Assembly: GCA_041649475.1 (NCBI GenBank)
Contig: JBAZNA010000001.1
Span: 611,308 to 675,307 of the forward strand
Reading direction: 5' to 3'
DNA length: 64,000 nt
Source: Patescibacteria group bacterium
GTDB taxonomy: Bacteria; Patescibacteriota; Patescibacteriia; Magasanikbacterales; GWA2-37-8
Part shown: positions 2,772 to 45,935 of the stretch, piece after piece
How positions within the stretch are numbered: position 1 is the first letter of the stretch
Layout of the letters: each line of letters opens with the position of its first letter
Notes under the pieces: generated by a model
Databases searched by the model: none
What the model saw: the letters and a program-made list of their open reading frames with translations, nothing else
What the model was told of the DNA's origin: nothing
Translations under genes and position numbers: made by a program

Positions 2772-3242
2772 CTAAATTTTGTCAAACACCACCTCATCCC
2801 CTATTTTTATCCCGGTTTTATCCATAAATCCGGCCGGAAGCTCCAAAACCATGTTTGACGGCTGGCTGGAGAAAAACGGAGTCAGCTGGGCCTCGGTTTT
2901 ACCCGGTTCGGTCTGGATATTTGGCGCAATCTCAACAATTTTATTGCCATTTAACCAGACAATATCCAAAGGAAATCTCATATCCCTCATAACCATGGTG
3001 TGCTGACCAAAATCCGGAAAAACAAACAGCATGCCACCGTAGTTGCCCATATCTTTTTTATTACTCCAGCCCTCCACCTGGTGCGCCGGGGTGTTGGCAA
3101 CCAAAACCTTCAAAACCTCACCGCCGATTTTAACATTCGCTTTCGGCCACATAGATTGATATATCTTAAAAACTATCGCAATTACCAGTATAACCGCAAA
3201 GAAAATTAAATGCCATTTTTTAAGAGGTTTTGATTGTGACAT
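2772..3242 (-). CDS. DUF192 domain protein (membrane-anchored, uncharacterised)
   Basis: N-terminal TM helix plus a conserved DUF192 core (FPLDIVWLN...IVEI). Confidence 0.55.
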   Translation of the reverse strand: MSQSKPLKKWHLIFFAVILVIAIVFKIYQSMWPKANVKIGGEVLKVLVANTPAHQVEGWSNKKDMGNYGGMLFVFPDFGQHTMVMRDMRFPLDIVWLNGNKIVEIAPNIQTEPGKTEAQLTPFFSSQPSNMVLELPAGFMDKTGIKIGDEVVFDKI

Positions 3243-4227
3243 ACGCCATTAATAATACCAAAAATACCAAAGCAAACAACTTTTGCTGGCTTTGAAACAA
3301 TAAAGTGGTAATGCCAAATATAAATGCTAGAGCATACATTAACAGCACGGATTGTTTATGACTCCAGCCGGCGTCCATCAGCCGAAAATGCAAATGCTCA
3401 CGATCACCTTTAAAAATTGATTGCTTGCGGCGGATGCGCGCTACAGCCACTCTGATTAAATCCAAAATCGGTATAGCCATAACCAGTAATGCAGTGGCCA
3501 CTTTACCGCCGGAAATGATTGCCAAAATTCCCAAAATAAAACCGATAAACAAACTGCCACCTTCGCCTAAAAATATTTTAGCCGGATTAAAATTAAAAAT
3601 TAAAAACCCCAGACAACTGCCGGCAAAAATGATCGCCAGCAAGCCGACATTGGGCTGAAAAAATGTCTTGGTATTTGTTAAAAAGAAAATCATCAAAGCG
3701 CCGATAAAAACTATGCCTGTGGATAAGCCGTCTAGCCCGTCTAAAATTTTTGTCGTATACATCATGCCCATCAGCCACAAAAAAGCAAAAATACCGCCGA
3801 CTATCAAACCAAAATTAATAATGCCGCCGAATGGGTTGGTAATTTTTTCCAAGCCCACTCCGCCGATGACAGCCACTAGCGCCGCCAAGGCAGTAATCAG
3901 TAACCGAAACTGCGGACTTAATTGTTTGGCATCATCAACCGCGCCCATGATAATTAAAATCAAACCGGCAGCCGCGATCCAAATCAATTTATTTTTAAAA
4001 ATTTCAATGCCGTAAATCGGGTTTAATAATAAAAACCCAACCACCAAAGAAAAAGAAATAAAAATGGCCACACCCCCCAAAAGCGGAGTTGGCCCAAAAT
4101 GTTTTTTTCGCTGTTGATCCGGCACATCCACAATTTGAAAACGCAAAGCCAATCGCCTGACGACGATGGTAAACAAAATTGATGACGCTAACGCGGCTAA
4201 AAAATATATCAAGTAAGTATAAAACAT
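3220..4227 (-). CDS. Glycosyltransferase family 4 polyprenyl-phosphate HexNAc-1-phosphate transferase (WecA/TagO/MraY family)
   Basis: Polytopic membrane protein with a DDxxQ motif and C-terminal GDREHLHFRLM, which resembles WecA HIHHRL more than MraY HHHFE. Confidence 0.7.
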   Translation of the reverse strand: MFYTYLIYFLAALASSILFTIVVRRLALRFQIVDVPDQQRKKHFGPTPLLGGVAIFISFSLVVGFLLLNPIYGIEIFKNKLIWIAAAGLILIIMGAVDDAKQLSPQFRLLITALAALVAVIGGVGLEKITNPFGGIINFGLIVGGIFAFLWLMGMMYTTKILDGLDGLSTGIVFIGALMIFFLTNTKTFFQPNVGLLAIIFAGSCLGFLIFNFNPAKIFLGEGGSLFIGFILGILAIISGGKVATALLVMAIPILDLIRVAVARIRRKQSIFKGDREHLHFRLMDAGWSHKQSVLLMYALAFIFGITTLLFQSQQKLFALVFLVLLMAYVTIKTS

Positions 4228-4229
4228 AA

Positions 4230-6959
4230 CTATTCCACGCGAATATTCCCGCCTTCGCCAATGACTACAGTATCTCTCCTTTTCAGTTTTCCGGCAAGCA
4301 ATAAATCAGCCAGCTTGTTTTCCACTCTCTCCTGTAAAACACGGCGCATGGGCCTGGCGCCAAACTCCGGATCAAAACCGGCTTCGGCCAAATAACTGAT
4401 GGCCCCATCTTCAACTTTCATTTGCACGCCTTTGACTTCCAATTCTTTAACAATTCTCTGTAACATCAATCCGGCCACTTTCTGTATCGCTTCTTTATCC
4501 AGCGGTTTGAATAATATTATGCCGTCAAAACGATTTAAAAATTCCGGCCGGAAATATTGTTTTAATTCCCCGTGCAACAATCTTTCTTTTATCGCTTCCT
4601 GTGATAAACCGGCGCGCATTTGTTCTGACACATAACTTGTGCCGGCATTGGAGGTGGCAATCAAAATTATATTGGTAAAATCAACCGCCCGGCCGGTGCT
4701 GTCTGACAGGCGCCCGTCATCCATCACCTGTAAAAACAAATTTAAAATATCCGGGTCGGCTTTTTCAATTTCATCTAAAAGCAAAAGCGCAAACGGATGG
4801 CGGCGCACTGATTCCGTCAAAATACCGCTGCCTTTTTGTCCGGCCGCGCCGATAAGCCGCGACAGACCGGATTTTTCCTGGTATTCACTCATATCCAAAC
4901 GGATCATGCGATCTTCGCCGCCAAAATATACTTCGGCAATGGTTTTTGCCAGTTCGGTTTTGCCGACGCCGGTGGGGCCGAGAAATAAAAAGTTGGCGAT
5001 TGGTCTTTTGGCGGAACGGATTTCGGCGCGGGCGCGGCGCAAAGAACTGGCCACCGCATCAACGCCTTCGTCCTGGCCGATTACCCGCTTGTGCATTTCT
5101 GCTTCCAGATTTAATAACTTGGTTGACTCGTCACTTGATACAGTGGTAAGCGGGATTTTTGTTTTTTCCGCAATCACGGCCGCCACTTCTTCTCCGGTCA
5201 CCAAAGTGTTGGCACCTTTTTTGTTATGAGCAAAACTGGCCGCTTCAGTCATTATCTCCAAGGCGCTGCCCGGCAGATATATTTCGTGGATAAATTTGGC
5301 GGAAAACTGCGCTGCCTTTTCAATCGCGTCATAAGAAAAGAAAACATTTTGTTTGTATTCCGCCTCCCCTACTTTTGATTCCAAAACCTGAATCGCTTGG
5401 TTGACATCCATCTCCGGCACATCAATTTTTGTAAACACGTTGCCCATAGTTGAATTGGCAATGTGTTTGGCAAAATCCTCATTAGTGGTGGTGGCAACGG
5501 TTAAAAACCGGCCGCTGGTTAAAAATTCCGCCAAAGTGTCGGCGACATCCAAACTACCCTCTTGCCCGCCGGCAGACACACCTATCAGTTCATGAATATT
5601 GTGGATAAACAAAATCACATTGCGGGCGCGAGAAATTTCATGCATAATATTTCGCAATCTATCAACCGCTCCGGCCGGGTCTGTACCACCCAACAATGCG
5701 GACACGCTTAAGCGCACCATGCGCTTGTCTTTGAGGCGATCCGGCACATCATCAGCCACCATGCTTTGAGCAACCCCTTCCACAATTGATCTTTTACCCA
5801 CGCCATGATCACCAACCAGCAAAACATTATGCTGACCGCCCTCAACCACCCGGTATATTTCTTCAATTTCTTTTACTCGCGCCACGCAGGGATTTAAATG
5901 TCCGAATTGCGCGAGTAAAGTTAAGTCGTCACTGAATTGATTTAAATAGGGAGTGGCCAAGGCGGTCATGGCTTTGTCCATGCCATATTTTGACCGATGC
6001 GACGCGGCCCGGGCAAATTTTACGTATTGGCGATGCAGTCGCTCCCGAATTCGCGCCCACTCAATCACATTGGCCAATTTTTGATTATTAATATCTAAAG
6101 CAAACATTATTTCCTGGATTTCCGGCGACTCTTTGACCGCGCAAATTAAAAGCTCGGTTACGCTCACATATTCCTGGTGAGCGTTATAGGCCTCTTCATA
6201 GGCCTGAAAAATTATTTGTTGGAAATCGGCCGACAGAACCGGCGCTGATTTGATTTTTTCTTCAGTTAATTCCAATTTACTGATTTGTTCTTCAAACACG
6301 CTGGCCGGAATGCCCAAACGGATAAAAATATTGCCGATGCGATTAAATTTTAACAGGGCCAAAAACAAATCAATCGGCCCGACTTCTTTTTTCCCGTATT
6401 TATCCGCCAATTTATACGCACTACCCAGGGCAGACATGGCCTCGGCAGTAAAGGTCTCAGTAATATTCAATCGTTTTTTCCACGGCACGCGCTTGATCTG
6501 GTCCCAGACATTTATATTTAAGCCCTCATCTTTTTCCGGCTGTTTATCAAACTCATACTCAAATCTTTCCACCATGCCCGTAAATTCGCCTTGTTTAATA
6601 ACGCGATACCATAAATACAATAATCCGATGACGCCGAGATAAAATAAATATGAAAAAACCATTTGCCCGGATTTATACACTCCAAATCCGACCCAGATCC
6701 AACAAGTTAGAGTAAAAACCAAAGCCGTAATCACCCGGATTTTATTAAGTATTCGCCTGCCTCTTTGTAAAGCAATGTTATAACGCGTGAGCGGATAATT
6801 CCAATACAGCCATTTACTTCGTAAATAAACACCCATCCGCGTTTCAGCGCGCTTGTTATTGGTTAAAATATTCAGTGGTGGAGATTTTTGAAAATCCATA
6901 TTCAGGTCAGGCGCCAAAAGGCAATTTAATAGAAAAAGGATGGAGAAAACCGTAGACAA
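4230..6959 (-). CDS. ClpA/ClpC-like two-domain AAA+ chaperone with N-terminal membrane-anchor extension and degenerate D1 ATPase motifs
   Basis: Clp_N repeats are present. D1 P-loop is GDHGVGKRS (consensus GEPGVGKT) and the D1 Walker B position reads FIHN instead of FIDE. D2 has intact Walker A GPTGVGKT and Walker B LLLLDEIEKA, plus sensor-2 GARP.R. There is no long ClpB-type M-domain. The N-terminal ~130 aa hold two hydrophobic helices. Start codon is uncertain (TTG at 6959, ATG at 6899 or 6829). Confidence 0.8.
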   Translation of the reverse strand: MSTVFSILFLLNCLLAPDLNMDFQKSPPLNILTNNKRAETRMGVYLRSKWLYWNYPLTRYNIALQRGRRILNKIRVITALVFTLTCWIWVGFGVYKSGQMVFSYLFYLGVIGLLYLWYRVIKQGEFTGMVERFEYEFDKQPEKDEGLNINVWDQIKRVPWKKRLNITETFTAEAMSALGSAYKLADKYGKKEVGPIDLFLALLKFNRIGNIFIRLGIPASVFEEQISKLELTEEKIKSAPVLSADFQQIIFQAYEEAYNAHQEYVSVTELLICAVKESPEIQEIMFALDINNQKLANVIEWARIRERLHRQYVKFARAASHRSKYGMDKAMTALATPYLNQFSDDLTLLAQFGHLNPCVARVKEIEEIYRVVEGGQHNVLLVGDHGVGKRSIVEGVAQSMVADDVPDRLKDKRMVRLSVSALLGGTDPAGAVDRLRNIMHEISRARNVILFIHNIHELIGVSAGGQEGSLDVADTLAEFLTSGRFLTVATTTNEDFAKHIANSTMGNVFTKIDVPEMDVNQAIQVLESKVGEAEYKQNVFFSYDAIEKAAQFSAKFIHEIYLPGSALEIMTEAASFAHNKKGANTLVTGEEVAAVIAEKTKIPLTTVSSDESTKLLNLEAEMHKRVIGQDEGVDAVASSLRRARAEIRSAKRPIANFLFLGPTGVGKTELAKTIAEVYFGGEDRMIRLDMSEYQEKSGLSRLIGAAGQKGSGILTESVRRHPFALLLLDEIEKADPDILNLFLQVMDDGRLSDSTGRAVDFTNIILIATSNAGTSYVSEQMRAGLSQEAIKERLLHGELKQYFRPEFLNRFDGIILFKPLDKEAIQKVAGLMLQRIVKELEVKGVQMKVEDGAISYLAEAGFDPEFGARPMRRVLQERVENKLADLLLAGKLKRRDTVVIGEGGNIRVE

Positions 6960-7281
6960 CAGCGAGCGGCAACGCCAGCCATACTAAAAATAAAAGCAAA
7001 CAAACCGCCAGCCAGAACATTAAACCGATGGTTCTGATAATTATTTGAAAAAACCGCATGATAAAACTGATGATTCTGCCCTGGATGTCATACTGGCCAA
7101 ACATTGGCACAAAAATATTGGCCAGCCACAAACCGGGCGCCAGATTTTGATTGCCGCTTCTAAATAAATTTAAACACCACTTGGCCGCGTGCAAAGTTCC
7201 TTTCGTATACCACCAAAGCGGAAAATAAAAAAAATCTAAAATTATTTCTAGAAAAAGCCTTTGAAAAACTATCAAAAACAT
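6907..7281 (-). CDS. Small polytopic membrane protein, hypothetical
   Basis: 124-aa hydrophobic ORF. Overlaps the annotated 5' end of the Clp-like ORF by about 50 nt. Confidence 0.35.
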   Translation of the reverse strand: MFLIVFQRLFLEIILDFFYFPLWWYTKGTLHAAKWCLNLFRSGNQNLAPGLWLANIFVPMFGQYDIQGRIISFIMRFFQIIIRTIGLMFWLAVCLLLFLVWLALPLAVVYGFLHPFSIKLPFGA

Positions 7282-7303: not shown

Positions 7304-10300
7304 TTACCTCATCATCTCCACAATCTTCGCCCGGGTCTTCGGTCCGAAGATGCCGTAGCCGTAAATGGAGGGGCTGGTGATTTTGTATTTAAGCTGGAAT
7401 CTCTGCACGGCTTTTTTGGTGGCAGAATCGAAATAGCCGGTGATTTTAGCTTCCGGATAGATGGCTTTGTTCTGGGCGAGGATGGTTTGGAGGACTTTGA
7501 CGTCTGTGCCGGATGAACCCAGTTGCAGGCTTCTGGTAAAAAGGTACTTGGGTGAGGAGGTGGGCAGTTGGTAAGTTTTGGTGAGATAGCCTCTGGTTAT
7601 GGTATCAAACCGGCCAATGGTGGTGGAAGCGATAGTGTTGGCGGTTTGATAGTTCTTTACTGCATTTTTGGTTAAAGGGCCATAGTAACCGGTTTTCAGC
7701 TTCTGGGGATAGATGCCGGGTATTTCAGAGAGGATGTTTTGCAATATTTTGACATCATAGCCGATGTTTCCGACATAGAGATTTCTGCCAAAGACGGTGG
7801 ATAAGATAAGCTTGGAGAGATCAGATAAAACCGAGGTAACTACAGTGATTGGGGTGGAGGTGGTGGTTGTGAGATTGGTGTTGCTGTTATTGTTGTTTTG
7901 CTGATTGGTTGAAGTGGAAAAAAGGTTAAACAAAGTGGAGGTGGAGAGGGAGGAAGTGGAGAGAACAGCCCCCGACCCCGACGAAATTGGAAACACCACG
8001 CTGGGACCGCCGCCGCCGTTTTTATGAATAGTGACCGGAATAGAGACAATGGCGATGCCTTCATAACCGGAGTCAGAGCTGGAAGCGGTGTTAGAGATAG
8101 TGACATTGTGATTGCCGGTAAAGGTACTGCCATTGGCGGCCATGGTGACGGTTTGAGCTGTATACCAGGTGGTGGAGGTGAAGGTTAAGGTGGAGGGATA
8201 AAAGACCATCTGGGTGCTGGTGGGAGCGGAGACAGTGATAATGACACTAGCAGAGGGCTGTGCGGCCAAAACAATGCTGAAGGTGTCGGTCATGCCGTCT
8301 TCCCAGACATTGGTGCTGGCTTTCTGGGAGACGGTGACGCCGGCGCCGGTGGTGTGGGTGTTGAGGAGGATGGATAGAGAACCGGTGAAATCTACCACAG
8401 CCAGATCGGGTTTAGAATCTTTATTAAGATCATCAGCAGTCACCCAATATACCTGACCGCCTATGGCATACGTTGTGGCTGAACCAAAGGTGCCGTTGCC
8501 TAAACCTAAAAGAACAGAAACAGAGCCATTCCCGCCGCTTCCTATATTGGCCACAGCTAAATCTTCATTACCGTCTTCATTAAAATCTTCCGAGGCTATA
8601 CCCGTCGGGGATGTGCCAACCGTATAATTTGTCGCCGAACCAAAGGTGCCATTGCCGTTGTTTAAAAGAATGGAAACGGTGGTACCAGGGTTTGAAGAAT
8701 CATAAAGAGTATTGTTATTGGCCACAGCTAAATCAAAGTAGCCGTCTCCATTAAAATCAGTTGTAGCCGTGTAAAATGGACCAGCACCAACAGTATAAGG
8801 TGTGGCCGCGCCAAAAGTGCCGTTGCCGTTGCCTAAAAGCACAGAGACGGTACTGCCCATACCACTAGGCGCAATCAAATCAATTTTACCATCAGAATTA
8901 AGATCAGCGGCTGAAACCGTAACAATTCCCATGCCAACCGTATAATTTGTCGCCGAACCAAAGGTGCCATTGCCGTTGTTTAATAAAACATAAACATCTG
9001 TACCTACGAAATCTCCTTCTATCAGATCGGATTTATTATCTCCATTAACATCAGCGGTAGTTACCCAAAGCCCCCCAGACGCAGCACCATAAGGAGTCAA
9101 ATCTCTGAATGTGCCGTCACCATTACCAAAAACAACAGAAACAGTCCCTGCCGTATAATTGGCAAAAGCCAAATCAAGGTGGCCGTCAGAATTAAAGTCA
9201 GAGACAGCCATACCACCGACATAAGTTTCCATGGGTACACTACCTAATGCGGAGAACGAGCCGTCACCATTGCCAAGGACAACAGTAAGGGTGCCTGTTA
9301 ATAAACTACCAACTACCAGATCTGTGTTTCCATCTTCATTAAAATCAGCGGCCACAGTATGAACAGGATATGAATCAACATCATAAGCAACCGGATCGGC
9401 AAATAAAGAACTTGAAAATAGTCCTCCCCTATTCCCAATTAAAATTGAATAACTGCTAGCAGAAGAATCTGCCACAACAATATCCGGCCAAAAATCTCCA
9501 CTGAAGTCAGTCGTTAATACAGTAAGGGGTTTGGTGCCAAGAGAATAGGCAGTGGAAGTGGCAAAGGTGCCAATACCGGTGCCAAAGAGAGTAGAGATGG
9601 TATTAGCGCTATAGTTGGAGGTGATAAGATCTCTTTTGCCGTCACCATTAAGGTCGTAATTGGTTATTGATCTGGGAGAGGCACCAACAGCGTAGGTGGT
9701 GTTTTGAAGGGTAAATGTTCCGGAACCTGAATTTAAAAGAATGGATACGGTATTAGAGGCGCTATTAGCAGTGACAATATCATATAAATTATCCGAATTG
9801 AAATCATAGGTAGTGATTGAGTAAGGAAAAGTTCCATCGCCAATATTGTAATTTACTGCCGCCGAAAAAGTGCCGGTAACAGAAGAATTTAAAAGAATAG
9901 AGACAGTACTGCTGCTAAAGTTGGCCACGGCCAAATCATTTTTATTGTCAGAATTAAAATCAGCGGAAATGATTGATATTGGCTTGCTGTTGACACTGTA
10001 GTTAGTGACTGATCCAAAAGTGCCGTTGCCAACTCCGAACAAGACAGAGACATTGTCTGAACCATAATTGGCGACGGCTAAATCGGTCTTGCCGTCAACA
10101 TTAAAGTCACCGGTAGTTACAGAATAGGGAGAAGAAGAAACAGTGTAATTAGTGGCTGTGCCAAAAGTGCCGTTACCGACACCGAGGAGAATGGAGATGT
10201 TATCACTGCCGCTATTGGCCACGGCCAAATCCAGATAACTATCACTATTAAAATATCCTAAAACAATGGCTTTGGGGCTGGTGCTGACATTGTAGTTAAC

Positions 10301-13300
10301 GGCTGACCCAAAGGTGCCATCGCCAACTCCAAGAAGAATAGAGACAATGTTGCTTGAACCTTTGGAGATGGCCAAATCCTGATAGCCGTCGCCGTTAAAA
10401 TCTCCATAAACCGTGGAAGTGGTAGTGCCACTGGTGTCATTGTCGGTGATGGTAGCGGTGACAGAAGAAACGGAGATGTTGTTATACATTACATCTGTAC
10501 TGGTGGCAGTATGAGTAATGGCGCTGGTATGATTTCCTTCTACCAAAGCATCATCTATAGCCGAAGCCATGACGGTTTGAGGAGTGTTCCAATTGGAGGA
10601 GGTAAAAGTCAGACGAGCTAAACTGGTGGTAACCTGGGTAGTGGAGGCGGTGACGGAAATATTGACATTAGCCGTGGGTTGGGAAGTAAGAACCACAGTA
10701 TAAGTATCCGTCAGGCCATTTTCGGATATATTGGTTGAACCGCCGGATTGGGTGAGAGTGACACCGGCAGTGTCATTATCAGTGTAGGTGCCTATAATAC
10801 TTTGCGTAATGAAACCTTCAAAACGGGAATCAGTGCTGGAAACAGAATGGGCAATGGTGGCAAAACGCCTTCCGGTTGCCACACTATCATCTGATGCTGT
10901 TATAGTTACTGTCTGGGGCGTATCCCAATTAGCGGAAGTAAAAGTAAGAGATGACACATCTGTTGAAATATATGAACTTATAGGGCTTACATGCACAATC
11001 ACATTGGCGGTTGGCTGACCATCAAGCACCACACTGTAAGTATCTGCTCCGCCTTCATTTATAACAGTTGATCCGCCTGATTCTGCAATCGTTACAGAAG
11101 ATGAAGTATAGGAATTAAATAATATATTAACAAGAGGATCTCCGTATCTTTCCGAAGCGGCCGCCAAATCAACCTTACCATCATGATTAAAATCAGCCGC
11201 AGTTAAAGGACCGTGATACAGGGCATAACTTGGACCACTATACGTCTTAACAAAATAAGATGTTGGGGGTGCGAAGCTCCCATTGCCATTATTTAATAAT
11301 ACATTGACTTTGCTTGAGGGAACGGCGAGATCATTTACTCCATCATTATTAAAATCAGCCGCCACCAATGAATAAAGCGCGGTAGATGTTACAGTGTAAT
11401 TTACCGAGGCCGAAAAGGTCCCGGTTGGCGTTCCATTGAGAAAAACCGCAATATAACTTAAAGAGCCGTTTGTTACGGTAGAGGCCGCCAAATCAATCTT
11501 TCCGTCATTATTTAAATCAGAAGATGTTATGTTGCGTGGGTAATAAGAGCCACTCACTGGAATACTTATACCCGACTGGAAAGTACCGTCGCCTATGCCC
11601 AGCAAAACAGTCACATTAGTACTTGAATAATTTGCAACAGCCAAATCAGTAAAACCATCTCCGTTAAAATCACCCGCAGTTATTGAATAAGGACTGGAAC
11701 TCGCGCTATAACTTACCGCGGCATTAAAGGTACCGTCACCTACACCTAAGAACACAGATACATTATTACTGGTCTTATTGGCTGTGGCCAAATCTTGTTT
11801 ATTATCTCCGTTAAAATCAGCGGCTGTTAAAGAACGGGGGTATGTGCCGGCACCATAGTTTGAAGCCGCACCAAAAGTTCCATCTCCCACGCCTAAAAGC
11901 ACAGAAACATTATTACTGTCATTATTGGCAGATGCTAAATCAATGTTATTATCTCCGTTAAAATCAGCGCTGGCCACCGAGCTTGGGCCGGTGCCTACCG
12001 CAAAGCTTGTTTTTAAACCAAAGGTGCCTGTGGCGGTACTAAGCAACACGGAAACCGTATTACTTCCATGATTGGCAACGGCTAAATCAAAATTTCCATC
12101 ATCATTAAAGTCATCATTAATCAACTGCCGATCATTATAAAACAAGTACATGGGTAAATTTCCATCTTCCGGAACATAGTGCGGAAGCACAAAATTTCCG
12201 GATCCATAATTATATAAAACAGATACATTACCATAACTATAAGCTTGAGTCACAGCAACAGCCAAATCATTTTTCCCATCATTATCAAAGTCAGCGCGGG
12301 TTATAGCTGTAACTGGACCATACAACTGATACACGGTGGAAGATCCAAAGGTTCCGTCGCCGTTGCCGAACCTGGTATCAAACGAACCATTTTCGTTGCC
12401 AACCAACAAATCTTCCTCACTATCATCATTTAAATCTGCAACTAAAAGAGAGCCGTAATAACCCCATGAACCAACACTTATTGCTGAACCCATCAAATAA
12501 TCCGTAGAAGAGGCGAAAGTGCCGTCACCTGCTCCTAAAAGAATGGAAACTGTGTTACTAACAAAACTGGCCGCGGCTATATCCATTTTTCCGTCGTCAT
12601 TAAAATCATTAGTTTTTACATCTTTTGCATAAGGGTTGACTATAAAATAAGTTGATGAATTAAACGTGCCGTCTCCATTTCCCAAAAGAACAGCCACCGA
12701 ACTACTTGTATAAGTAGACACCACCAAATCAACCTTATTATCACCGTTAAAATCAGCTGTAGTCGCATAATACGGATTTCCTACCAGGGTATAATTTACA
12801 GCTGACTGGAAAGTGCCGTCGCCTCTATTCAATAAAACCGAAACCGAAGGAGTGACTTGGGTAAGGTTTGGCACCGCTATATCAGGATAGCCGTCATTAT
12901 TAAAATCGTCTGATACTAAATGCCAAGGATAAGTAACTACCGAATAATTGCTGGCCGCCAAAAAACTACCGTCTCCCCTGCCCAAAAAAATTGAAACATT
13001 GCCGGCACCTCTGTTAGCGGTGGCCAAGTCCATATACCCGTCTAAATTGAAGTCATCCGCGATAACCCCCGTTGTTCCCTCACCACTCTGTGAAGTCGAA
13101 GTTGCCAGAAAGGTACCATCCCCTTGATTTAAATAAATATGAAGAGTATCGGTATCATCAAAAGGAACGGCCACATCAATTTTCCCATCACCATTAAAAT
13201 CACCGCTGGCAATGGTGGTTATATAGCCGATCCCTGATCCGAGAGTAATATCATCCCTAGTTTTGAATACCTCCGCGGCTGCCCACACATACCCCACCGA

Positions 13301-13396
13301 TGCCAAAATTACCGCATACATAAAAATAGCCAAAAAAATGGCTGCGGCTTTTTGTTTTACATCTGTATAATCCTTAATCGGCTTAAAAGCAGTCAT
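7304..13396 (-). CDS. Giant cell-surface protein: signal-anchor, about 30 FG-GAP/VCBS repeats (integrin-alpha-like beta-propellers), three Ig/cadherin-like domains, Asn-rich linker, two C-terminal peptidoglycan-binding (PG_binding_1) domains
   Basis: 2030 aa. The repeat unit DFNxDGxxDLAVAN...VSVLLGxGDGTF recurs with a period of about 55 aa. Segments such as TVTITASDDSVATG resemble Ig/Calx-like modules. The C-terminus carries two LxxGxxGxDVKxLQxxL...GYFGxxTxxAVxxFQ peptidoglycan-binding modules. Confidence 0.85.
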   Translation of the reverse strand: MTAFKPIKDYTDVKQKAAAIFLAIFMYAVILASVGYVWAAAEVFKTRDDITLGSGIGYITTIASGDFNGDGKIDVAVPFDDTDTLHIYLNQGDGTFLATSTSQSGEGTTGVIADDFNLDGYMDLATANRGAGNVSIFLGRGDGSFLAASNYSVVTYPWHLVSDDFNNDGYPDIAVPNLTQVTPSVSVLLNRGDGTFQSAVNYTLVGNPYYATTADFNGDNKVDLVVSTYTSSSVAVLLGNGDGTFNSSTYFIVNPYAKDVKTNDFNDDGKMDIAAASFVSNTVSILLGAGDGTFASSTDYLMGSAISVGSWGYYGSLLVADLNDDSEEDLLVGNENGSFDTRFGNGDGTFGSSTVYQLYGPVTAITRADFDNDGKNDLAVAVTQAYSYGNVSVLYNYGSGNFVLPHYVPEDGNLPMYLFYNDRQLINDDFNDDGNFDLAVANHGSNTVSVLLSTATGTFGLKTSFAVGTGPSSVASADFNGDNNIDLASANNDSNNVSVLLGVGDGTFGAASNYGAGTYPRSLTAADFNGDNKQDLATANKTSNNVSVFLGVGDGTFNAAVSYSASSSPYSITAGDFNGDGFTDLAVANYSSTNVTVLLGIGDGTFQSGISIPVSGSYYPRNITSSDLNNDGKIDLAASTVTNGSLSYIAVFLNGTPTGTFSASVNYTVTSTALYSLVAADFNNDGVNDLAVPSSKVNVLLNNGNGSFAPPTSYFVKTYSGPSYALYHGPLTAADFNHDGKVDLAAASERYGDPLVNILFNSYTSSSVTIAESGGSTVINEGGADTYSVVLDGQPTANVIVHVSPISSYISTDVSSLTFTSANWDTPQTVTITASDDSVATGRRFATIAHSVSSTDSRFEGFITQSIIGTYTDNDTAGVTLTQSGGSTNISENGLTDTYTVVLTSQPTANVNISVTASTTQVTTSLARLTFTSSNWNTPQTVMASAIDDALVEGNHTSAITHTATSTDVMYNNISVSSVTATITDNDTSGTTTSTVYGDFNGDGYQDLAISKGSSNIVSILLGVGDGTFGSAVNYNVSTSPKAIVLGYFNSDSYLDLAVANSGSDNISILLGVGNGTFGTATNYTVSSSPYSVTTGDFNVDGKTDLAVANYGSDNVSVLFGVGNGTFGSVTNYSVNSKPISIISADFNSDNKNDLAVANFSSSTVSILLNSSVTGTFSAAVNYNIGDGTFPYSITTYDFNSDNLYDIVTANSASNTVSILLNSGSGTFTLQNTTYAVGASPRSITNYDLNGDGKRDLITSNYSANTISTLFGTGIGTFATSTAYSLGTKPLTVLTTDFSGDFWPDIVVADSSASSYSILIGNRGGLFSSSLFADPVAYDVDSYPVHTVAADFNEDGNTDLVVGSLLTGTLTVVLGNGDGSFSALGSVPMETYVGGMAVSDFNSDGHLDLAFANYTAGTVSVVFGNGDGTFRDLTPYGAASGGLWVTTADVNGDNKSDLIEGDFVGTDVYVLLNNGNGTFGSATNYTVGMGIVTVSAADLNSDGKIDLIAPSGMGSTVSVLLGNGNGTFGAATPYTVGAGPFYTATTDFNGDGYFDLAVANNNTLYDSSNPGTTVSILLNNGNGTFGSATNYTVGTSPTGIASEDFNEDGNEDLAVANIGSGGNGSVSVLLGLGNGTFGSATTYAIGGQVYWVTADDLNKDSKPDLAVVDFTGSLSILLNTHTTGAGVTVSQKASTNVWEDGMTDTFSIVLAAQPSASVIITVSAPTSTQMVFYPSTLTFTSTTWYTAQTVTMAANGSTFTGNHNVTISNTASSSDSGYEGIAIVSIPVTIHKNGGGGPSVVFPISSGSGAVLSTSSLSTSTLFNLFSTSTNQQNNNNSNTNLTTTTSTPITVVTSVLSDLSKLILSTVFGRNLYVGNIGYDVKILQNILSEIPGIYPQKLKTGYYGPLTKNAVKNYQTANTIASTTIGRFDTITRGYLTKTYQLPTSSPKYLFTRSLQLGSSGTDVKVLQTILAQNKAIYPEAKITGYFDSATKKAVQRFQLKYKITSPSIYGYGIFGPKTRAKIVEMMR

Positions 13397-13428: not shown

Positions 13429-13505
13429 CAATTTTATCCACAAAAAAATCCCCTACTCTTGGGGAAATTATGTTAGGGAAGATTTTGCTAAATAAGATTT
13501 ATTCT

Positions 13506-13871
13506 CTACTGCTTTGCCACTGTCACATCCTTTATGCCGACACTCAAATACTTTATCCCGCCGGCCGCCACCATATCCATCTTTGCCAATCTTTCCTGTA
13601 TATTGCTTAGCGAACTATTTTCGGCGATTTGGATGTTGGTTTTTTCAATGTCCTGTTCCAGAGCCGCGGTTTGTGTTTCCAATTTGTGCAATTCATAGCC
13701 GCTGGTGGTTGAAGATGTAGTTTTAAATACATAAGCAGCACCAACAAGCACAATCACTCCCACAAAAACAAAACGAATCGTATTTCCATCAATCCATTTG
13801 GGCAAACTCAAAAATCGTAAAGCATTGATGAAATTATGATATTTGAATTGAATTTGCCTTTTAATAGTCAT
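13506..13871 (-). CDS. ftsL: FtsL-like cell-division membrane protein (septum formation initiator family)
   Basis: 121 aa with a single TM helix followed by a coiled coil. It sits immediately downstream of rsmH, as in the dcw cluster. Confidence 0.45.
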   Translation of the reverse strand: MTIKRQIQFKYHNFINALRFLSLPKWIDGNTIRFVFVGVIVLVGAAYVFKTTSSTTSGYELHKLETQTAALEQDIEKTNIQIAENSSLSNIQERLAKMDMVAAGGIKYLSVGIKDVTVAKQ

Positions 13872-14776
13872 AATTTTTCTATTATGCGTAGTTTCGCGCT
13901 TCTTGATTTGGGATTATTTTTTACCTCCTCACTTGTCGGCGCAATTGGTTTTTTATTAATTAATTTGGCTGTTTTTGCCCCCGCGAAATATTGTTTTACG
14001 ATTCTGTCTTCGAGCGAATGAAAACTGATTACTGCCAGTCGTCCGCCCGGAGCCAGAATTTCAATTGCTTGCGGCAATGTATTTTTTAAATTTTCCAGTT
14101 CATGATTGACTTCTATGCGCAAGGCCTGAAAGATCTTTGTGGCCGGGTGTATATCGCCTATTCGCGGCACATCCTTATCAGTGTGTAACTCTTGCCTATA
14201 AACCTCTAAAATCGTTTCCACCAGCTGGCCAACCTTTTCAAACGGAACTTGTTTTCTTTTTTCTTTTATGGCCTGGGCAATTTCCGCACTGAATTTTTCT
14301 TCTCCGTATAATTTGAAAATTTTATTTAAATCAACTTGACTGTAAGTGTTTAAAATTTCGGCGGCTGTCAGCGATCCGTTTTGTTTAATTTCATAGCGCA
14401 TGTCCAGCGGTTCATCCGGCAAATTGAAGCTCAATCCTCTGCCCCGCTCTTCAAACTGCGGCGTTGACCAGCCCAAATCCATTAAAATCCCGTTAACTTC
14501 AAAGAACTTATTTTCTTCAGCTATTTTTTTTAAATTTGTAAAATTGTCTCTGATTAAAATCGCCCGCTCTTGCCAACTGTATAAAAACCTTTTTGCCCGC
14601 AGAACCGCTTCAATATCCGCGTCTATTCCGAGCAATCTTCCGTTCGGCCCGATACGCTCCAAAATCGCTTCGCTGTGGCCCGCATCCCCTAAAGTACAAT
14701 CCACAATATTCGCCCCGGGCTTTAAAGCCAGTGCCTCAATCGCCTCCTTTAGTAATACGGGGACATGGCGGCTCAT
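13868..14776 (-). CDS. rsmH: 16S rRNA (cytosine1402-N4)-methyltransferase RsmH (likely true start at the internal ATG, MSRHVPVLL)
   Basis: Shows the N-terminal HVPVLL motif and the SAM-binding GxG DCTLG.GGHS-like motif. Ordered after mraZ on the minus strand. The ORF track extends it to 14908. Confidence 0.9.
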   Translation of the reverse strand: MSRHVPVLLKEAIEALALKPGANIVDCTLGDAGHSEAILERIGPNGRLLGIDADIEAVLRAKRFLYSWQERAILIRDNFTNLKKIAEENKFFEVNGILMDLGWSTPQFEERGRGLSFNLPDEPLDMRYEIKQNGSLTAAEILNTYSQVDLNKIFKLYGEEKFSAEIAQAIKEKRKQVPFEKVGQLVETILEVYRQELHTDKDVPRIGDIHPATKIFQALRIEVNHELENLKNTLPQAIEILAPGGRLAVISFHSLEDRIVKQYFAGAKTAKLINKKPIAPTSEEVKNNPKSRSAKLRIIEKL

Positions 14777-14789
14777 AATTTGGAAAAAA

Positions 14790-15221
14790 TTAAACTCCCA
14801 ACTCGGCCATTCGTTCGGCGATAGCGCCGCTTTCGGCTTCGGTTGTGCCTTTATACTTTGACCAGTTCTCCTGGTCCCAAATTTCCAATCGATTGTAAAG
14901 ACCGGCAATAACCACTGATTTTTTTAAACTTGCGAACTTTCTTAAATATTCCGGCAGGATCGCCCGGCCCTGCGAGTCAAGATCAACATCCATGGCTCCG
15001 GCCAGCATCAGGCGTGAAAACGCGCGGCTGTTGGCCTGGCTGATCGGGAGTGCGGCTAATTTTTCCGCCAACTTCGCCCATTCGGTTTTTGTATAAAGAA
15101 ATAAACAATTGTCTAACCCTCTGGTGACCACCGCGCCCTTTGCCAATTCACGTCTAAACTTGGCCGGTATTGCCAGCCGTCCTTTGTCATCAAGATTATG
15201 TGCATATTCTCCAATAAACAT
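14790..15221 (-). CDS. mraZ: Transcriptional regulator MraZ (true start likely MFIGEY)
   Basis: Duplicated MraZ/SpoVT-AbrB halves (DDKGRL..P and DSQGRI.LP). The ORF track extends it to 15278. Confidence 0.85.
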   Translation of the reverse strand: MFIGEYAHNLDDKGRLAIPAKFRRELAKGAVVTRGLDNCLFLYTKTEWAKLAEKLAALPISQANSRAFSRLMLAGAMDVDLDSQGRAILPEYLRKFASLKKSVVIAGLYNRLEIWDQENWSKYKGTTEAESGAIAERMAELGV

Positions 15222-15355
15222 ACCGGGCAATAAATTTTGTGGGATATGTTGTCCCCACTTTTTTCCACCTATTCCCATTTTACTCCACTACAAAACACAA
15301 GTCAACAATATCCACCAAAATTATACCGCTAAATTTTGGCTAAAATATAACAAAA

Positions 15356-15378
15356 CAGTCCCGACTTAGTCGGGACTG
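15356..15378. terminator. Hairpin CAGTCCCGAC-TTAG-TCGGGACTG downstream of the beta-CASP RNase gene
   Basis: Perfect 10-bp inverted repeat located between the RNase stop and the mraZ start region. Confidence 0.45.
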
Positions 15379-15401
15379 TGGATAAGTAACCAAATTTTTT
15401 G

Positions 15402-16839: not shown

Positions 16840-17538
16840 ATGCGACGTAATATCGATAATATTGAGATTGTTGAACCGCCATTTGAAGAACTGACAAAAA
16901 AATATTCCACCTTTTCCGCGGTTAAACGCACTTGTCTGGCCGGTTGCGGCTGTTTGGTTATCTTTATAATCGGGATAATTATTTTATTAAAAGTTTTAAT
17001 GGGCGCCGGGCCGCAAAATCTTAGCAAGGTGCCGGCCAATTTTCCTGCTGATATACCTGTCTATGATAAAGACAGTATTCAAAGAATCACCTACGTTTCC
17101 GGAAATTATAAAAACAAAGGCATAGAAATCGCGGCGATTTTTCCAAAAATAATTCTGTCTCCCCTGCTGATGTCTCTGGAAAACAAGCAACCGGCCAGTT
17201 CCACAAATAGTGGTGGATTTTCCATTGGCAATCTGTGGCAGTTGCTTACAGCACCGATAAGCGACCACCGGGACACGGTTCAAATAGAATGGCGGAGTTT
17301 GGCTGCCGACCCGTTCTTTATCGTCGGATATTACAAAACCGAACTGCAAAAAAATAATTACAATATAGATCTGGAAAGCGAAGGCAATGATGTCAGACAA
17401 TTTTCTTTTAGCCGCGGCGACATAAACGGTTCTCTTTATGTGGAAAGTGGCGGCGGAAAAGCCGGCACCAATGATATGATTTTAACGGTCAATATCGGCA
17501 GCGGGGTTGCCACCGGTACGCCCGCAAGCGCGCCTTAA
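16840..17538 (+). CDS. Hypothetical membrane-anchored protein
   Basis: One N-terminal TM helix and no recognisable domain. A TGTTATAAT -10 like element lies just upstream, at about 16823-16831. Confidence 0.4.
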   Translation: MRRNIDNIEIVEPPFEELTKKYSTFSAVKRTCLAGCGCLVIFIIGIIILLKVLMGAGPQNLSKVPANFPADIPVYDKDSIQRITYVSGNYKNKGIEIAAIFPKIILSPLLMSLENKQPASSTNSGGFSIGNLWQLLTAPISDHRDTVQIEWRSLAADPFFIVGYYKTELQKNNYNIDLESEGNDVRQFSFSRGDINGSLYVESGGGKAGTNDMILTVNIGSGVATGTPASAP

Positions 17539-17539
17539 T

Positions 17540-40763: not shown

Positions 40764-41285
40764 TTACTCGTTTTGGGCGAATTTAGAAAGTTTTTTTATG
40801 GCCCGATGGGCCGCTACTTTAACCGCCGTTTCCGTCATGCCTTTCATTTCCGCGATTTCTAAATAGCTATACCCAAAAATATAATGAAAGGTTACAATTT
40901 CACGGGTATTTTCGTCTAATTTGGCTAATAATTCATAAATTTCTTTTTTTATTGATTCTTTTTTAAAGGCGCGCGAGGCCAAATTCAGCCAAAAACTATC
41001 AACATTTTCGTCTGTTTCTTCCGGCAATGAGCCGACCGGCTTTTTATCCCGGTAGTAGTTAGCCATGTGATTTTTGCAAATTGTCATGATCCAGGCGGAT
41101 TGGCTGATTTTTGGGTCATAGGTCTCAAAATGCTCCAGGGCTTTCATAAAAATTTCCGATACCAAATCCTCGGCCAGTTCTTTATTGGCGCTAACGCGAA
41201 AAAAGACAAAGCGGTAAACTTTGTCTAAATGGGTTTGATAGAATTTTTCAAAATCGTGCTTTTTCACACTATCATTATAACTCAC
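40764..41285 (-). CDS. ECF-type RNA polymerase sigma-70 family factor
   Basis: Region 2 ([17 protein letters not shown]....AEDLVSE.F.K) and region 4 HTH ([28 protein letters not shown]). The start overlaps dnaJ by 11 nt. Confidence 0.8.
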
Positions 41286-45924: not shown

Positions 45925-45935
45925 TATATTGTATA

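What the first reader, a model, noticed from the sequence alone, without database searches (positions are those of the whole stretch)
4230..6959. Membrane-anchored ClpA/C-like unfoldase whose first AAA+ domain looks catalytically dead
About 130 residues with two strongly hydrophobic helices sit in-frame upstream of the Clp_N repeats. An open 128-codon extension is unlikely by chance at this AT content. In D1 the P-loop reads GDHGVGKRS, with Arg where the Ser/Thr belongs, and Walker B reads FIHN instead of hhhhDE. D2 is canonical. There is no ClpB-type M-domain and no clear IGF/IGL ClpP-docking loop (AGL is at that position). Together this suggests a membrane-tethered, single-active-ring Clp-family ATPase of unclear partner and function. 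A small polytopic membrane ORF overlaps its 5' end.
Basis: partly seen in the sequence, partly recalled or inferred. Interest (0 to 1): 0.6.

Follow-up and report, generated by a model that had tools for sequence, protein, structure and literature searches.

The report
Membrane-anchored Clp-like ATPase beside cell-wall genes
This conserved gene of ultra-small Patescibacteria encodes a Clp/Hsp100-type ATPase that is anchored in the membrane, has a dead first ATPase ring and lacks the substrate-gripping tyrosines in both rings; it always sits between a small membrane protein and cell-wall/division genes, so it is probably an uncharacterised envelope-biogenesis factor rather than an ordinary protein unfoldase.

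Summary
The CDS is 4230..6899 (-), 889 aa. It starts at ATG 6899, not TTG 6959. It encodes an N-terminal two-helix membrane hairpin, a divergent Clp_N domain, a dead D1 and an ATPase-competent D2. There is no M-domain.

More than 120 homologues (58-81% identical, about 920 aa) and 147 GTDB species carry it, nearly all Candidatus Magasanikbacteria/Patescibacteria. The dead D1 is a family trait.

- D2 is not fully canonical. The pore-loop GYVG tyrosine is replaced (GAAGQKGSG), so neither ring has an aromatic pore loop.
- Most homologues have a CxxC..CxxC zinc ribbon before the hairpin. This genome has deleted it.
- The "overlapping" small ORF is a conserved, tightly linked partner, 7 nt upstream.
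- The pair sits in the division/cell-wall cluster: mraZ-rsmH-ftsL-[small protein]-[Clp-like]-[WecA/MraY-family GT4]-DUF192.

Shorter relatives without D2 keep the GT4 neighbour. My best reading is a membrane-tethered, single-motor Hsp100 derivative that regulates or remodels envelope-synthesis proteins without threading them. I found no paper describing it. It is a new variant of a known kind. Interest 0.6.

The parts
4230..6899 (-). CDS of the membrane-anchored Clp/Hsp100-like ATPase (889 aa plus stop). The start is ATG 6899.
   Evidence: ORF. It is 100% identical to database protein P0001 (889 aa). The homologues' N-termini align to M21. The start lies 7 nt after the upstream stop.
6831..6872 (-). 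Vestige of the N-terminal zinc ribbon (NILTNNKRAETRMG). It results from a 14-codon in-frame deletion plus loss of all four Cys.
   Evidence: Alignment A1. 74 of 76 species loci and the nearest relative (79% identical) keep CxxC..CxxC.
6675..6740 (-). Transmembrane helix 1 (IRVITALVFTLTCWIWVGFGVY), preceded by the basic GRRILNK stretch.
   Evidence: Hydropathy 2.03. AF2 helix 39-77. K+R average 4.45 before TM1 and 3.16 after TM2, against 2.0 in the loop.
6606..6662 (-). Transmembrane helix 2 (MVFSYLFYLGVIGLLYLWY). The TM1-TM2 loop is 4 residues here, because about 18 residues are deleted relative to homologues.
6000..6464 (-). Divergent Clp_N-like N-domain (residues about 146-300, eight helices).
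   Evidence: TIGR02639 aligns residues 174-900 of the 909-aa ORF to model positions 5-732. phmmer aligns it to the ClpC N-domain. AF2 helices 152-301. Pfam Clp_N is below E 0.01 on this sequence.
5100..5864 (-). D1 pseudo-ATPase module. Walker A GDHGVGKRS is at 5787-5813, the pore loop GGTDPAGAV at 5664-5696, Walker B FIHNIHEL at 5586-5618, and the lost Arg fingers (STMGNVFTKI) at 5424-5453.
   Evidence: Mean conservation of the D1 large domain is 0.75.
4233..5099 (-). D2 module. Walker A GPTGVGKT is at 4956-4979 and Walker B LLLLDEIEKA at 4758-4787. Sensor 1 IATSN is at 4647-4661, the Arg finger RPEFLNRFD at 4524-4550 and sensor 2 GARPMRR at 4341-4361. The pore loop RLIGAAGQKGSGILTE (4812-4859) has no aromatic residue. 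AGL sits at the ClpP-loop position (4602-4619).
   Evidence: PF07724 E 6.6e-54 and PF10431 E 2.5e-24. Motif survey.
6907..7281 (-). Conserved small membrane protein (124 aa, no known family). It is the probable partner subunit.
   Evidence: It lies immediately upstream in all 76 species loci that have upstream DNA. It has 233 homologues, all named 'hypothetical'. It is also present beside distant family members at E 1e-32 to 1e-35. AF2 pLDDT is 90.6 and the model is a two-helix hairpin.
3220..4227 (-). GT4 polyprenyl-phosphate HexNAc-1-P transferase (WecA/TagO/MraY family), starting 2 nt after the Clp-like stop.
   Evidence: PF00953 E 1e-30. TIGR02380 WecA scores 130 bits and TIGR00445 MraY 67 bits, both below cut-off. 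Orthologues 46-47% identical lie downstream of distant and D2-less relatives.
2772..3242 (-). DUF192 protein, the last gene of the conserved run.
   Evidence: PF02643 E 1e-23. Synteny.
13506..13871 (-). FtsL-like bitopic protein.
   Evidence: NF053549 FtsL_Actino E 2.3e-9, below cut-off. It holds a conserved position after rsmH.
13868..14908 (-). rsmH (mraW) 16S rRNA methyltransferase. The ORF start is probably over-extended.
   Evidence: PF01795 E 3e-99, with the match starting at residue 46.
14790..15278 (-). mraZ, the first gene of the dcw-type cluster. A promoter-like site lies at 15305-15277 and a terminator-like hairpin at 15379-15355 upstream.
   Evidence: PF02381 E 4e-42. Consensus scan, which is weak evidence.

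Best explanation
What it is (shown). The gene encodes a member of an uncharacterised Patescibacteria-wide subfamily of Clp/Hsp100 AAA+ proteins. The family's domain order is zinc ribbon (lost in this genome), cytoplasm-in/cytoplasm-out transmembrane hairpin, flexible linker, Clp_N-like domain, D1, D2.

D1 is a conserved pseudo-ATPase. It has lost the Walker A Ser/Thr, the Walker B Asp-Glu, both Arg fingers and the pore-loop Tyr. D2 keeps every ATP-hydrolysis motif but has no aromatic pore loop. The gene is tightly linked to a 124-aa two-helix membrane protein upstream and a WecA/MraY-family GT4 downstream, inside an mraZ-rsmH-ftsL cluster.

How it most likely works (inferred). The protein forms a hexamer tethered under the membrane, with its N-domain/D1 face towards the bilayer, as in FtsH. 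D1 serves as a nucleotide-independent assembly and scaffold ring. D2 is the only motor. The small membrane protein docks the complex through its conserved cytoplasmic loop.

ATP turnover in D2 would drive non-processive remodelling, assembly/disassembly or switching of membrane-bound envelope-synthesis proteins. The likely targets are the adjacent polyprenyl-phosphate sugar transferase and/or divisome components. This differs from threading polypeptides into ClpP.
For: Fold and family. PDB phmmer finds ClpC at E 4e-132. Foldseek places ClpC, ClpB and ClpA on top.

The membrane hairpin is conserved and follows the positive-inside rule.

D1 is degenerate throughout the family and superfamily, yet conserved (0.75 against 0.855 for D2). 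None of 30 distant representatives has DE in D1.

D2 catalytic motifs are invariant. GPTGVGKT occurs in 120/120, and DE-IEKA and GARPMRR are conserved.

Pore loops. GTKYRGEF becomes GT(T/D)PAGAV and GAPPGYVGYEEGG becomes GAPGEKGTG. None of the 30 distant representatives has GYVG.

The ClpP tripeptide position is [A/N/S/K]-G-[V/L/I/T/M/A], which is poorly conserved.

Synteny. The small protein lies upstream in 76/76 species loci, at -14 to +18 nt in 58/76. MraZ-RsmH-FtsL-like lie upstream. GT4-DUF192 or a 117-aa membrane protein plus FtsW lie downstream.

Distant members keep the small protein and the GT4. D2-less 583-631-aa relatives still sit directly upstream of the GT4.

Precedents exist for non-threading or half-dead Hsp100 relatives. 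Torsin lacks aromatic pore loops and is membrane-associated (PMC5425593). Apicoplast ClpM has a degenerate D1 and no ClpP motif (bioRxiv 10.64898/2026.05.20.726455).
Against: There are no experimental data of any kind. Oligomeric state, topology, ATPase activity and partners are all inferred.

Gene neighbourhood does not prove physical or functional interaction. In six loci the GT4 is replaced downstream by a 117-aa membrane protein plus FtsW, and in one distant locus (L093) no GT4 follows.

The geometry (D1 face towards the membrane, D2 face free) and an A-G-L turn at the tip of a helix-loop-helix are also what a ClpP-coupled membrane-protein dislocase would need. S. aureus ClpC has AGF at the aligned position. 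ClpP is common in Patescibacteria (PMC12361377).

Non-aromatic pore loops do not formally exclude substrate gripping.
Confidence: 0.45

Rival explanations
1. It is a membrane-anchored ClpP-dependent unfoldase/dislocase, an FtsH-like quality-control protease built from ClpA/C. It would pull membrane proteins out through the D1 face and feed them to ClpP docked on D2 through the AGL loop.
For: N-terminal anchoring puts the substrate-entry face towards the membrane, as in FtsH. D2 is hydrolysis-competent. A-G-L lies at the tip of a helix-loop-helix (residues 754-776), aligned with VGF/AGF of ClpC. Spacing is ClpA-like with no M-domain. ClpP is frequent in Patescibacteria.
Against: Both pore-1 loops lack any aromatic or bulky hydrophobic residue across the family and superfamily. 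The tripeptide is weakly conserved: the first position is A/N/S/K and the third is V/L/I/T/M/A. The loop is 7 residues shorter than in ClpC. Some lineages have lost D2 or its motifs but keep the rest and the neighbourhood. No clpP lies in the window or in 1.38 Mb of syntenic loci.
Confidence: 0.17
2. It is an essentially non-enzymatic membrane scaffold or regulator. The Hsp100 body is a structural platform, and ATP binding at D2 only stabilises the oligomer. It would organise the GT4/dcw proteins, and hydrolysis would be dispensable.
For: D2-less relatives of about 600 aa (N-module + Clp_N + dead D1) remain directly upstream of the orthologous GT4. Two distant full-length representatives also have degenerate D2 motifs (P0247, P0258). 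The D1 Walker A Lys itself is replaced by R/M/T/V in several lineages.
Against: In the Magasanikbacteria-type family, every D2 catalytic residue is invariant or nearly so in 106-120 sequences, including the Walker B Glu, sensor 1, the Arg finger and sensor 2. D2 is the most conserved part, at 0.855. That pattern argues for selection on hydrolysis.
Confidence: 0.22
3. It is a soluble ordinary ClpC/ClpA mis-called at its 5' end. The true start would be the internal ATG near 6574 (M129 of the 909-aa ORF), and the hydrophobic region would be untranslated.
For: An ATG exists there (MVERFEY...). No obvious Shine-Dalgarno sequence precedes ATG 6899.
Against: The region upstream of that ATG is conserved as protein in over 100 homologues and 76 species loci, including invariant W33, V110, E111, Y115 and W132. 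A profile of it finds 145 cluster representatives. The start at 6899 abuts the upstream stop. All curated Clp equivalog models score at roughly half their cut-offs or less.
Confidence: 0.02
4. In this particular genome the gene is decaying and on its way to becoming a pseudogene. It has lost the zinc ribbon and most of the extracytoplasmic loop.
For: Two in-frame deletions (14 and about 18 codons) are confined to the N-module and absent from the 79%-identical nearest relative. A 6-kb FG-GAP gene is inserted in the cluster just upstream.
Against: The 889 codons are uninterrupted and all D2 motifs are intact. Both TM helices are retained, and the deletions are in frame. Two other species (L079, L084) also lack the Cys ligands while keeping the gene.
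Confidence: 0.05

Closest known systems
ClpC (B. subtilis / S. aureus / M. tuberculosis ClpC1)
   Same: It is the best sequence and fold match (E 4e-132, 33-41% identity). It shares the Clp_N-type N-domain, two stacked AAA+ modules and the D2-small domain.
   Different: This protein has no M-domain and a dead D1. It has no pore-loop tyrosines and no [LIV]-G-F loop. It adds an N-terminal zinc ribbon and a transmembrane hairpin. It has a dedicated small membrane partner and a dcw/GT4 neighbourhood.
ClpA (E. coli)
   Same: N-domain, D1 and D2 without an M-domain. TIGR02639 aligns end to end. ClpA's Walker A spacing is about 281 from my own knowledge of the K220/K501 positions, against 278 here.
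   Different: The score of 531 bits is far below the 993-bit cut-off. ClpA has two active rings, KYR/GYVG pore loops and an IGL loop, is soluble, and partners ClpS and ClpP.
ClpE
   Same: A Hsp100 with an N-terminal Cys4 zinc ribbon, as in most members of this family.
   Different: ClpE is soluble, lacks Clp_N, has two active rings and docks ClpP. The window protein has lost the ribbon.
Torsin ATPases
   Same: They are Clp/Hsp100-related and membrane-associated through an N-terminal hydrophobic segment. They lack aromatic pore loops and are thought not to thread substrates (PMC5425593).
   Different: Torsins are eukaryotic and live in the ER lumen. They have a single AAA+ module and no Arg finger, which cofactors supply. 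Here D2 keeps its own Arg finger and a dead D1 ring is present.
Apicoplast ClpM (Plasmodium)
   Same: A ClpC-type protein with non-canonical D1 Walker motifs and no ClpP-binding motif (bioRxiv 10.64898/2026.05.20.726455).
   Different: ClpM has no membrane anchor, is an organellar gene and has an unrelated context. The state of its pore loops was not examined here.
FtsH / Msp1-type membrane-anchored AAA+ machines
   Same: They have an N-terminal transmembrane anchor, with the ring's entry face towards the membrane.
   Different: They belong to the classic AAA clade, have a single ring and carry aromatic pore loops. FtsH also has a fused protease. They are not homologous beyond the AAA+ core.

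Membership tests
Clp/Hsp100 class-I AAA+ (double-ring) superfamily | Two tandem AAA+ modules of the Hsp100 type with a C-terminal D2-small domain | tested here: met
   PF07724 E 6.6e-54, PF10431 E 2.5e-24 and AAA_lid_9. phmmer to ClpC, ClpB and ClpA. Foldseek TMt up to 0.77 over D1-D2.
Clp/Hsp100 class-I AAA+ (double-ring) superfamily | Clp_N double-repeat N-domain | tested here: met
   The domain is divergent. Pfam is below threshold on this sequence. It is aligned by TIGR02639 positions 5-732 and by phmmer to ClpC residues 6-108. AF2 gives eight helices. PF02861 is precomputed for the homologues.
Clp/Hsp100 unfoldases (functional class) | Aromatic pore-1 loops (KYR in D1, GYVG in D2) that grip and translocate substrate | tested here: not met
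   D1 reads GGTDPAGAV and D2 reads GAAGQKGSG. The family consensus is GTTPAGAV / GAPGEKGTG. None of 30 distant representatives has GYVG.
Clp/Hsp100 unfoldases (functional class) | Catalytically competent D1 (GxxxxGK[ST], hhhhDE, Arg fingers) | tested here: not met
   The motifs read GDHGVGKRS, FIHN, and ALERRFQ replaced by TMGNVFT. The same holds across the family.
Clp/Hsp100 unfoldases (functional class) | Catalytically competent D2 | tested here: met
   GPTGVGKT, LLLLDEIEKA, IATSN, RPEFLNRFD and GARPMRR are all invariant or nearly so. This is a sequence-level test only.
ClpC | Short coiled-coil M-domain inserted in D1-small | tested here: not met
   ClpC residues about 412-460 have no counterpart. 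Walker A spacing is 278 here against roughly 337 in the aligned ClpC chain. AF2 shows no coiled coil.
ClpA / ClpC / ClpE / ClpX (ClpP partners) | [LIV]-G-[FL] ClpP-docking loop in D2 | tested here: inconclusive
   AGL is present here. The family column composition is A67/N24 - G112 - V40/L38/I16/T9 of 120. S. aureus ClpC has AGF at the aligned site. The loop is short.
ClpA / ClpC / ClpE / ClpX (ClpP partners) | A clpP gene in the same genome and physical docking to ClpP | not testable with these tools
   Only 64 kb of the 963-kb contig is visible. There is no clpP in the window or in 90 related loci. ClpP is common in Patescibacteria in general.
ClpA (TIGR02639), ClpB (TIGR03346), ClpV (TIGR03345), ClpG/ClpK (NF033607/NF033606) equivalogs | Score at or above NCBIfam's curated cut-off | tested here: not met
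   Scores against cut-offs are 531/993, 547/1232, 448/885, 459/1900 and 453/1900 bits. A zinc-ribbon-bearing homologue gives the same pattern.
ClpB/Hsp104 disaggregases | Long M-domain coiled coil that couples to Hsp70 | tested here: not met
   There is no insertion between D1-small helices.
dcw (division and cell wall) gene cluster member | Conserved position among mraZ, rsmH, ftsL, mraY/ftsW-type genes across species | tested here: met
   The order mraZ-rsmH-ftsL-like-small protein-Clp-like-GT4/FtsW holds in the window and in most of 80 species loci. A functional role in division was not tested.

The most novel reading that the evidence does not exclude
Patescibacteria have converted a Clp/Hsp100 chaperone into an integral-membrane, non-threading ATPase complex: a pseudo-ATPase D1 ring, a single D2 motor and a dedicated two-helix membrane subunit. 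This complex would be a core component of their division/cell-wall gene cluster. It would control the polyprenyl-phosphate sugar transferase or divisome assembly. That would make it the first Hsp100-type protein with a dedicated envelope-biogenesis role and a bacterial counterpart of Torsin-like non-threading AAA+ switches.
Probability: 0.35. Interest if true: 0.8.

Novelty: new variant of a known kind. Interest (0 to 1): 0.6.

Why it matters
Patescibacteria (CPR) are a large fraction of bacterial diversity, and very little is known about how they build their envelope or divide. This gene is annotated everywhere as an ordinary 'ATP-dependent Clp protease ATP-binding subunit ClpC/ClpA'.

The evidence points elsewhere. 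It is a lineage-wide, membrane-embedded Hsp100 derivative whose sequence argues against the textbook threading mechanism. It has a fixed place next to cell-wall and division genes.

If the inferred role holds, three things follow:
- It adds a new component to the dcw cluster.
- It gives a natural example of a pseudo-ATPase ring kept under purifying selection in a bacterial Hsp100.
- It offers a tractable bacterial model for non-threading AAA+ proteins such as Torsins.

It also flags a systematic mis-annotation that would distort proteostasis inventories of CPR genomes.

Tried and rejected
1. Internal start at ATG about 6574. Rejected on conservation and gene linkage.
2. TTG 6959 start and a true overlap with the upstream ORF. 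Rejected, because homologues and the database call start at the ATG 60 nt downstream.
3. Search for clpP and clpS. There were no hits. These loci are all the same syntenic region, so this says nothing genome-wide.
4. Profile of the N-module in the search for related loci failed because it had no sufficiently conserved stretch. I replaced it with the N-domain/linker alignment A2.
5. Third word-indexed homology search with the N-module profile returned only 14 fragments and no taxonomy.
6. The listing of cluster members for distant representatives gave only 'Patescibacteria group bacterium' or 'bacterium'.
8. Calling the downstream GT4 'MraY'. I withdrew this. NCBIfam favours WecA (130 bits against 67), the protein has a DRxHLH[HF]R motif and lacks HHH, and PDB contains only MraY hits (E 2e-10). 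The subfamily is left open.
9. Literature searches for any description of this family found nothing relevant.
10. The promoter/terminator scan gave counts not above shuffles. I used it only as weak support for an mraZ-proximal promoter.
11. My first regex-based script for start-codon distances found only 3 loci. I redid it with tblastn.


Full report
**1. The observation**

The minus-strand ORF 4230..6959 is present as 909 codons from a TTG. The same protein is in public databases as an 889-aa product starting 20 codons later. That entry is P0001, 100% identical, named 'MAG: ATP-dependent Clp protease ATP-binding subunit [Patescibacteria group bacterium]', on a contig of 963,177 bp.

Homologues begin with the same M-[DLQ]-F-x-K...LNIL motif. 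ATG 6899 lies 7 nt after the TGA of the upstream ORF...GGCGCC TGA CCTGAAT ATG. The CDS is therefore 4230..6899. The overlap with the small upstream ORF is an artefact of taking the longest ORF.

Two hydrophobic helices lie at residues 54-75 and 80-98, with Kyte-Doolittle means of 2.0 and 1.7. AF2 models them as helices 39-77 and 83-103 (mean pLDDT 81, pTM 0.72). The flanks are basic, averaging 4.45 K+R before TM1 and 3.16 after TM2, against 2.0 in the loop. This fits a hairpin with both ends in the cytoplasm.

A 128-codon open stretch has P about 4e-4 at this base composition. The decisive evidence is conservation of the region as protein in more than 100 homologues.

**2. The AAA+ body**

Pfam finds AAA_2 (E 6.6e-54), ClpB_D2-small (E 2.5e-24) and AAA_lid_9. 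The best solved relatives are ClpC (E 4e-132), ClpB and ClpA. Foldseek with the AF2 model gives the same ranking.

The residue-level alignment to ClpC shows that D1 has lost four sets of functional residues:
- Walker A is GDHGVGKRS, against GEPGVGKTA.
- Walker B is ILFIHNIHEL, against ILFIDELHTL.
- The pore loop is GGTDPAGAV, against GTKYRGEF.
- The double Arg finger ALERRFQ is replaced by TMGNVFT.

This is a family trait. Among 120 close homologues the Walker A residue after Lys is mostly R/K. Walker B is H/N/D/S/P/Q followed by N/D/K/G, and never DE. None of 30 distant representatives, each from a different 50%-identity cluster, has DE. Several have even lost the Walker A Lys. Yet D1 is strongly conserved, with mean majority-residue frequency 0.75 against 0.855 for D2-large and 0.55 for the N-module. 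D1 is therefore a pseudo-ATPase under purifying selection.

There is no M-domain. ClpC residues about 412-460 are unmatched. The Walker A to Walker A spacing is 278 residues, against roughly 337 in the aligned ClpC chain. ClpA's spacing is about 281, from my own knowledge of its K220/K501 Walker A lysines.

**3. D2 is only partly canonical**

Five D2 ATPase motifs are invariant or nearly so: Walker A (GPTGVGKT, 120/120), Walker B (LLLLDEIEKA), sensor 1 (IATSN), the Arg finger (RPEFLNRFD) and sensor 2 (GARPMRR).

The pore-1 loop is different. In ClpA/B/C/X it carries the translocating tyrosine (GAPPGYVGYEEGG). Here it reads GAAGQKGSG, and the family consensus is GAPGEKGTG. It is four residues shorter and has no aromatic residue. 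None of the distant representatives has GYVG. One retains a recognisable GAPPGFEG. Neither ring therefore has the element that established work on Clp/Hsp100 proteins treats as essential for processive unfolding, as summarised in PMC5425593.

At the ClpP-loop position the protein has AGL at the tip of a short helix-loop-helix (helices 754-762 and 767-776). Across the family this position is [A67/N24/...]-G112-[V40/L38/I16/T9/M7/A7]. S. aureus ClpC has AGF at the aligned site, so this test is inconclusive.

All curated NCBIfam Clp equivalogs score at roughly half their cut-offs or less: ClpA 531/993, ClpB 547/1232, ClpV 448/885 and ClpG/K about 455/1900.

**4. The N-terminal module**

In 105 of 120 homologues, a CxxCx[ST]G...CxxCxG zinc ribbon precedes a conserved W-x-Y/F-P-L-T-R-Y...GRR-x-LN motif and the hairpin. 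The same ribbon is present in 74 of 76 species loci.

The window protein has lost the ribbon through a 14-codon in-frame deletion plus Cys substitutions, leaving NILTNNKRAETRMG at 6831-6872. About 18 residues of the TM1-TM2 loop are also deleted. Its nearest relative, 79% identical, keeps the ribbon once its mis-called start is corrected.

A profile of the module searched against 1.84 billion cluster representatives finds 145 proteins. They are fragments, full-length proteins of about 890-960 aa from many clusters, and a class of 583-631 aa. The short class consists of N-module + Clp_N + degenerate D1 with no D2 at all. Two of these are complete genes inside their contigs.

**5. Genomic context**

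On the minus strand the window reads:
- beta-CASP RNase (15402-16757)
- mraZ (14790-15278)
- rsmH (13868-14908)
- an FtsL-like protein (13506-13871; FtsL_Actino E 2e-9, below cut-off)
- a 2030-aa FG-GAP/PG-binding protein (7304-13396)
- the 124-aa membrane protein (6907-7281)
- the Clp-like gene
- a GT4 transferase (3220-4227, 2 nt after the Clp-like stop)
- DUF192 (2772-3242)

Six genomes looked up individually show the same order without the FG-GAP gene.

A scan of GTDB species representatives found 147 species with the gene, mostly Candidatus Magasanikbacteria. In the 80 loci fetched:
- The small protein lies immediately upstream in all 76 loci that have upstream DNA.
- mraZ-rsmH-ftsL-like precede it wherever the contig reaches that far, in nearly every locus.
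- GT4-DUF192 follow in most loci, and a 117-aa membrane protein plus FtsW follow in six.
- The distance from the small gene's stop to the Clp-like start is -14 to +18 nt in 58/76 loci.

Distant full-length members keep a homologue of the small protein upstream (E 1e-32 to 1e-35). Two of three keep the orthologous GT4 downstream, at 46-47% identity. The D2-less variants keep the GT4 but not the small protein.

The GT4 scores better against WecA (130 bits) than MraY (67 bits), both below cut-off. It has a DRxHLH[HF]R motif and no HHH. I therefore call it a WecA/TagO/MraY-family polyprenyl-phosphate HexNAc-1-P transferase, subfamily open.

**6. The small partner**

It has 233 homologues, all named 'hypothetical', with no Pfam or NCBIfam match. 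AF2 (pLDDT 90.6) gives two helices of about 46 residues each (2-47 and 66-113). They are joined by the most conserved segment, APGLWLxNxFVPMFGQYDxQGR.

**7. Mechanism**

Shown:
- the domain architecture;
- the loss of every D1 catalytic element and of both aromatic pore loops;
- the retention of D2 catalytic motifs;
- the conserved membrane hairpin;
- the conserved gene pair and its neighbourhood.

Inferred:
- The protein forms a hexamer under the membrane with the N-domain/D1 face towards the bilayer. The N-terminal anchor imposes this geometry, as in FtsH.
- D1 acts as a scaffold ring and D2 as the sole motor.
- The small protein is a docking subunit.
- ATP-driven, non-processive remodelling or switching acts on membrane-bound envelope-synthesis proteins, either the adjacent transferase or divisome components.

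I give this 0.45. The main rivals are:
- A ClpP-coupled membrane dislocase (0.17). The geometry, the AGL turn and the general presence of ClpP in Patescibacteria (PMC12361377) favour it. The pore loops and the weak tripeptide count against it.
- A largely non-enzymatic scaffold (0.22). The D2-less relatives favour it. The near-invariance of D2 catalytic residues counts against it.
- Gene decay in this genome (0.05).
- A mis-called soluble ClpC (0.02).

**8. Comparison with known systems and novelty**

By homology it is a Clp/Hsp100 protein, closest to ClpC and with ClpA-like domain spacing. It fails defining features of ClpA, ClpB and ClpC as functional families: an active D1, pore-loop tyrosines, an M-domain for ClpB/C, and curated score cut-offs.

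Partial precedents exist:
- apicoplast ClpM has a degenerate D1 and no ClpP motif;
- Torsins are Hsp100-related, membrane-associated and lack aromatic pore loops;
- ClpE has an N-terminal zinc ribbon;
- FtsH and Msp1 are membrane-anchored AAA+ machines.

None combines these features, and none sits in a dcw cluster. Six literature searches found no description of this family. Databases call it ClpC/ClpA.

I rate it a new variant of a known kind, with interest 0.6. The sequence-level picture is solid and unusual. The function rests on inference alone.

Noticed in passing
window 7304-13396 (-): A 2030-aa FG-GAP/VCBS-repeat protein with two C-terminal peptidoglycan-binding domains is inserted in the dcw-type cluster, between the ftsL-like gene and the small membrane gene. 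Its first 600 aa hit none of 80 related species loci. At least four of those loci (L013, L045, L079, L080) have other 2-8 kb insertions at the same site.
   Followed up: partly
window 6831-6872 (-) and 6663-6674 (-): This genome's copy has lost the family's N-terminal CxxC..CxxC zinc ribbon through a 14-codon in-frame deletion. It has also lost about 18 residues of the TM1-TM2 loop. The 79%-identical nearest relative keeps both. Two other species (L079, L084) lost the Cys ligands independently.
   Followed up: yes
L088:2894-4717, L094:6001-7896 (and P0155, P0158, P0161, P0165-P0167, P0178, P0196, P0217, P0226, P0261): A class of relatives of about 583-631 aa has the same N-module, Clp_N and degenerate D1 but no D2 at all. 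They are complete genes directly upstream of the orthologous GT4 transferase, and they lack the small membrane partner.
   Followed up: partly
window 52050-53446 (+): A GC-rich island (0.56 against about 0.43 background) holds a phosphoribosyltransferase (pyrE-like) and OMP decarboxylase (pyrF). Spurious long ORFs appear on the opposite strand. This may be a horizontally acquired pyrimidine module.
   Followed up: partly
window 45047-45964 (-): GrpE is fused to an N-terminal NUDIX hydrolase domain. It lies next to DnaK (42753-44666), with DnaJ nearby (41275-42426).
   Followed up: no
window 13868-14908 (-) vs 14790-15278 (-): The rsmH ORF as listed (TTG start) overlaps mraZ by 119 nt. The Pfam match begins at residue 46, so the real start is probably about 135 nt downstream. 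This is the same longest-ORF artefact seen in the Clp-like gene.
   Followed up: no
window 15355-15379 (-) and 15277-15305 (-): An 11-bp GC-rich terminator-like hairpin follows the beta-CASP RNase gene. A TTGACT-17-TAAAAT promoter-like site lies just before mraZ. A second terminator-like hairpin lies at 13449-13466, after the ftsL-like gene. Site counts were not above shuffled controls.
   Followed up: no
window 17507-19159 (+), 36238-37542 (-), 51193-51957 (-), 30544-31920 (+): The window is rich in envelope genes: MurJ flippase, a MurA-type enolpyruvyl transferase, UppP/BacA undecaprenyl-pyrophosphate phosphatase and a WbaP-type sugar transferase.
   Followed up: no
L011, L013-L017 and many other GTDB loci: Many species-representative MAGs that carry this Patescibacteria-specific gene cluster are titled 'uncultured Gammaproteobacteria bacterium', and one 'Candidatus Udaeobacter sp.'. 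These record titles look like placeholder or erroneous taxonomy.
   Followed up: no
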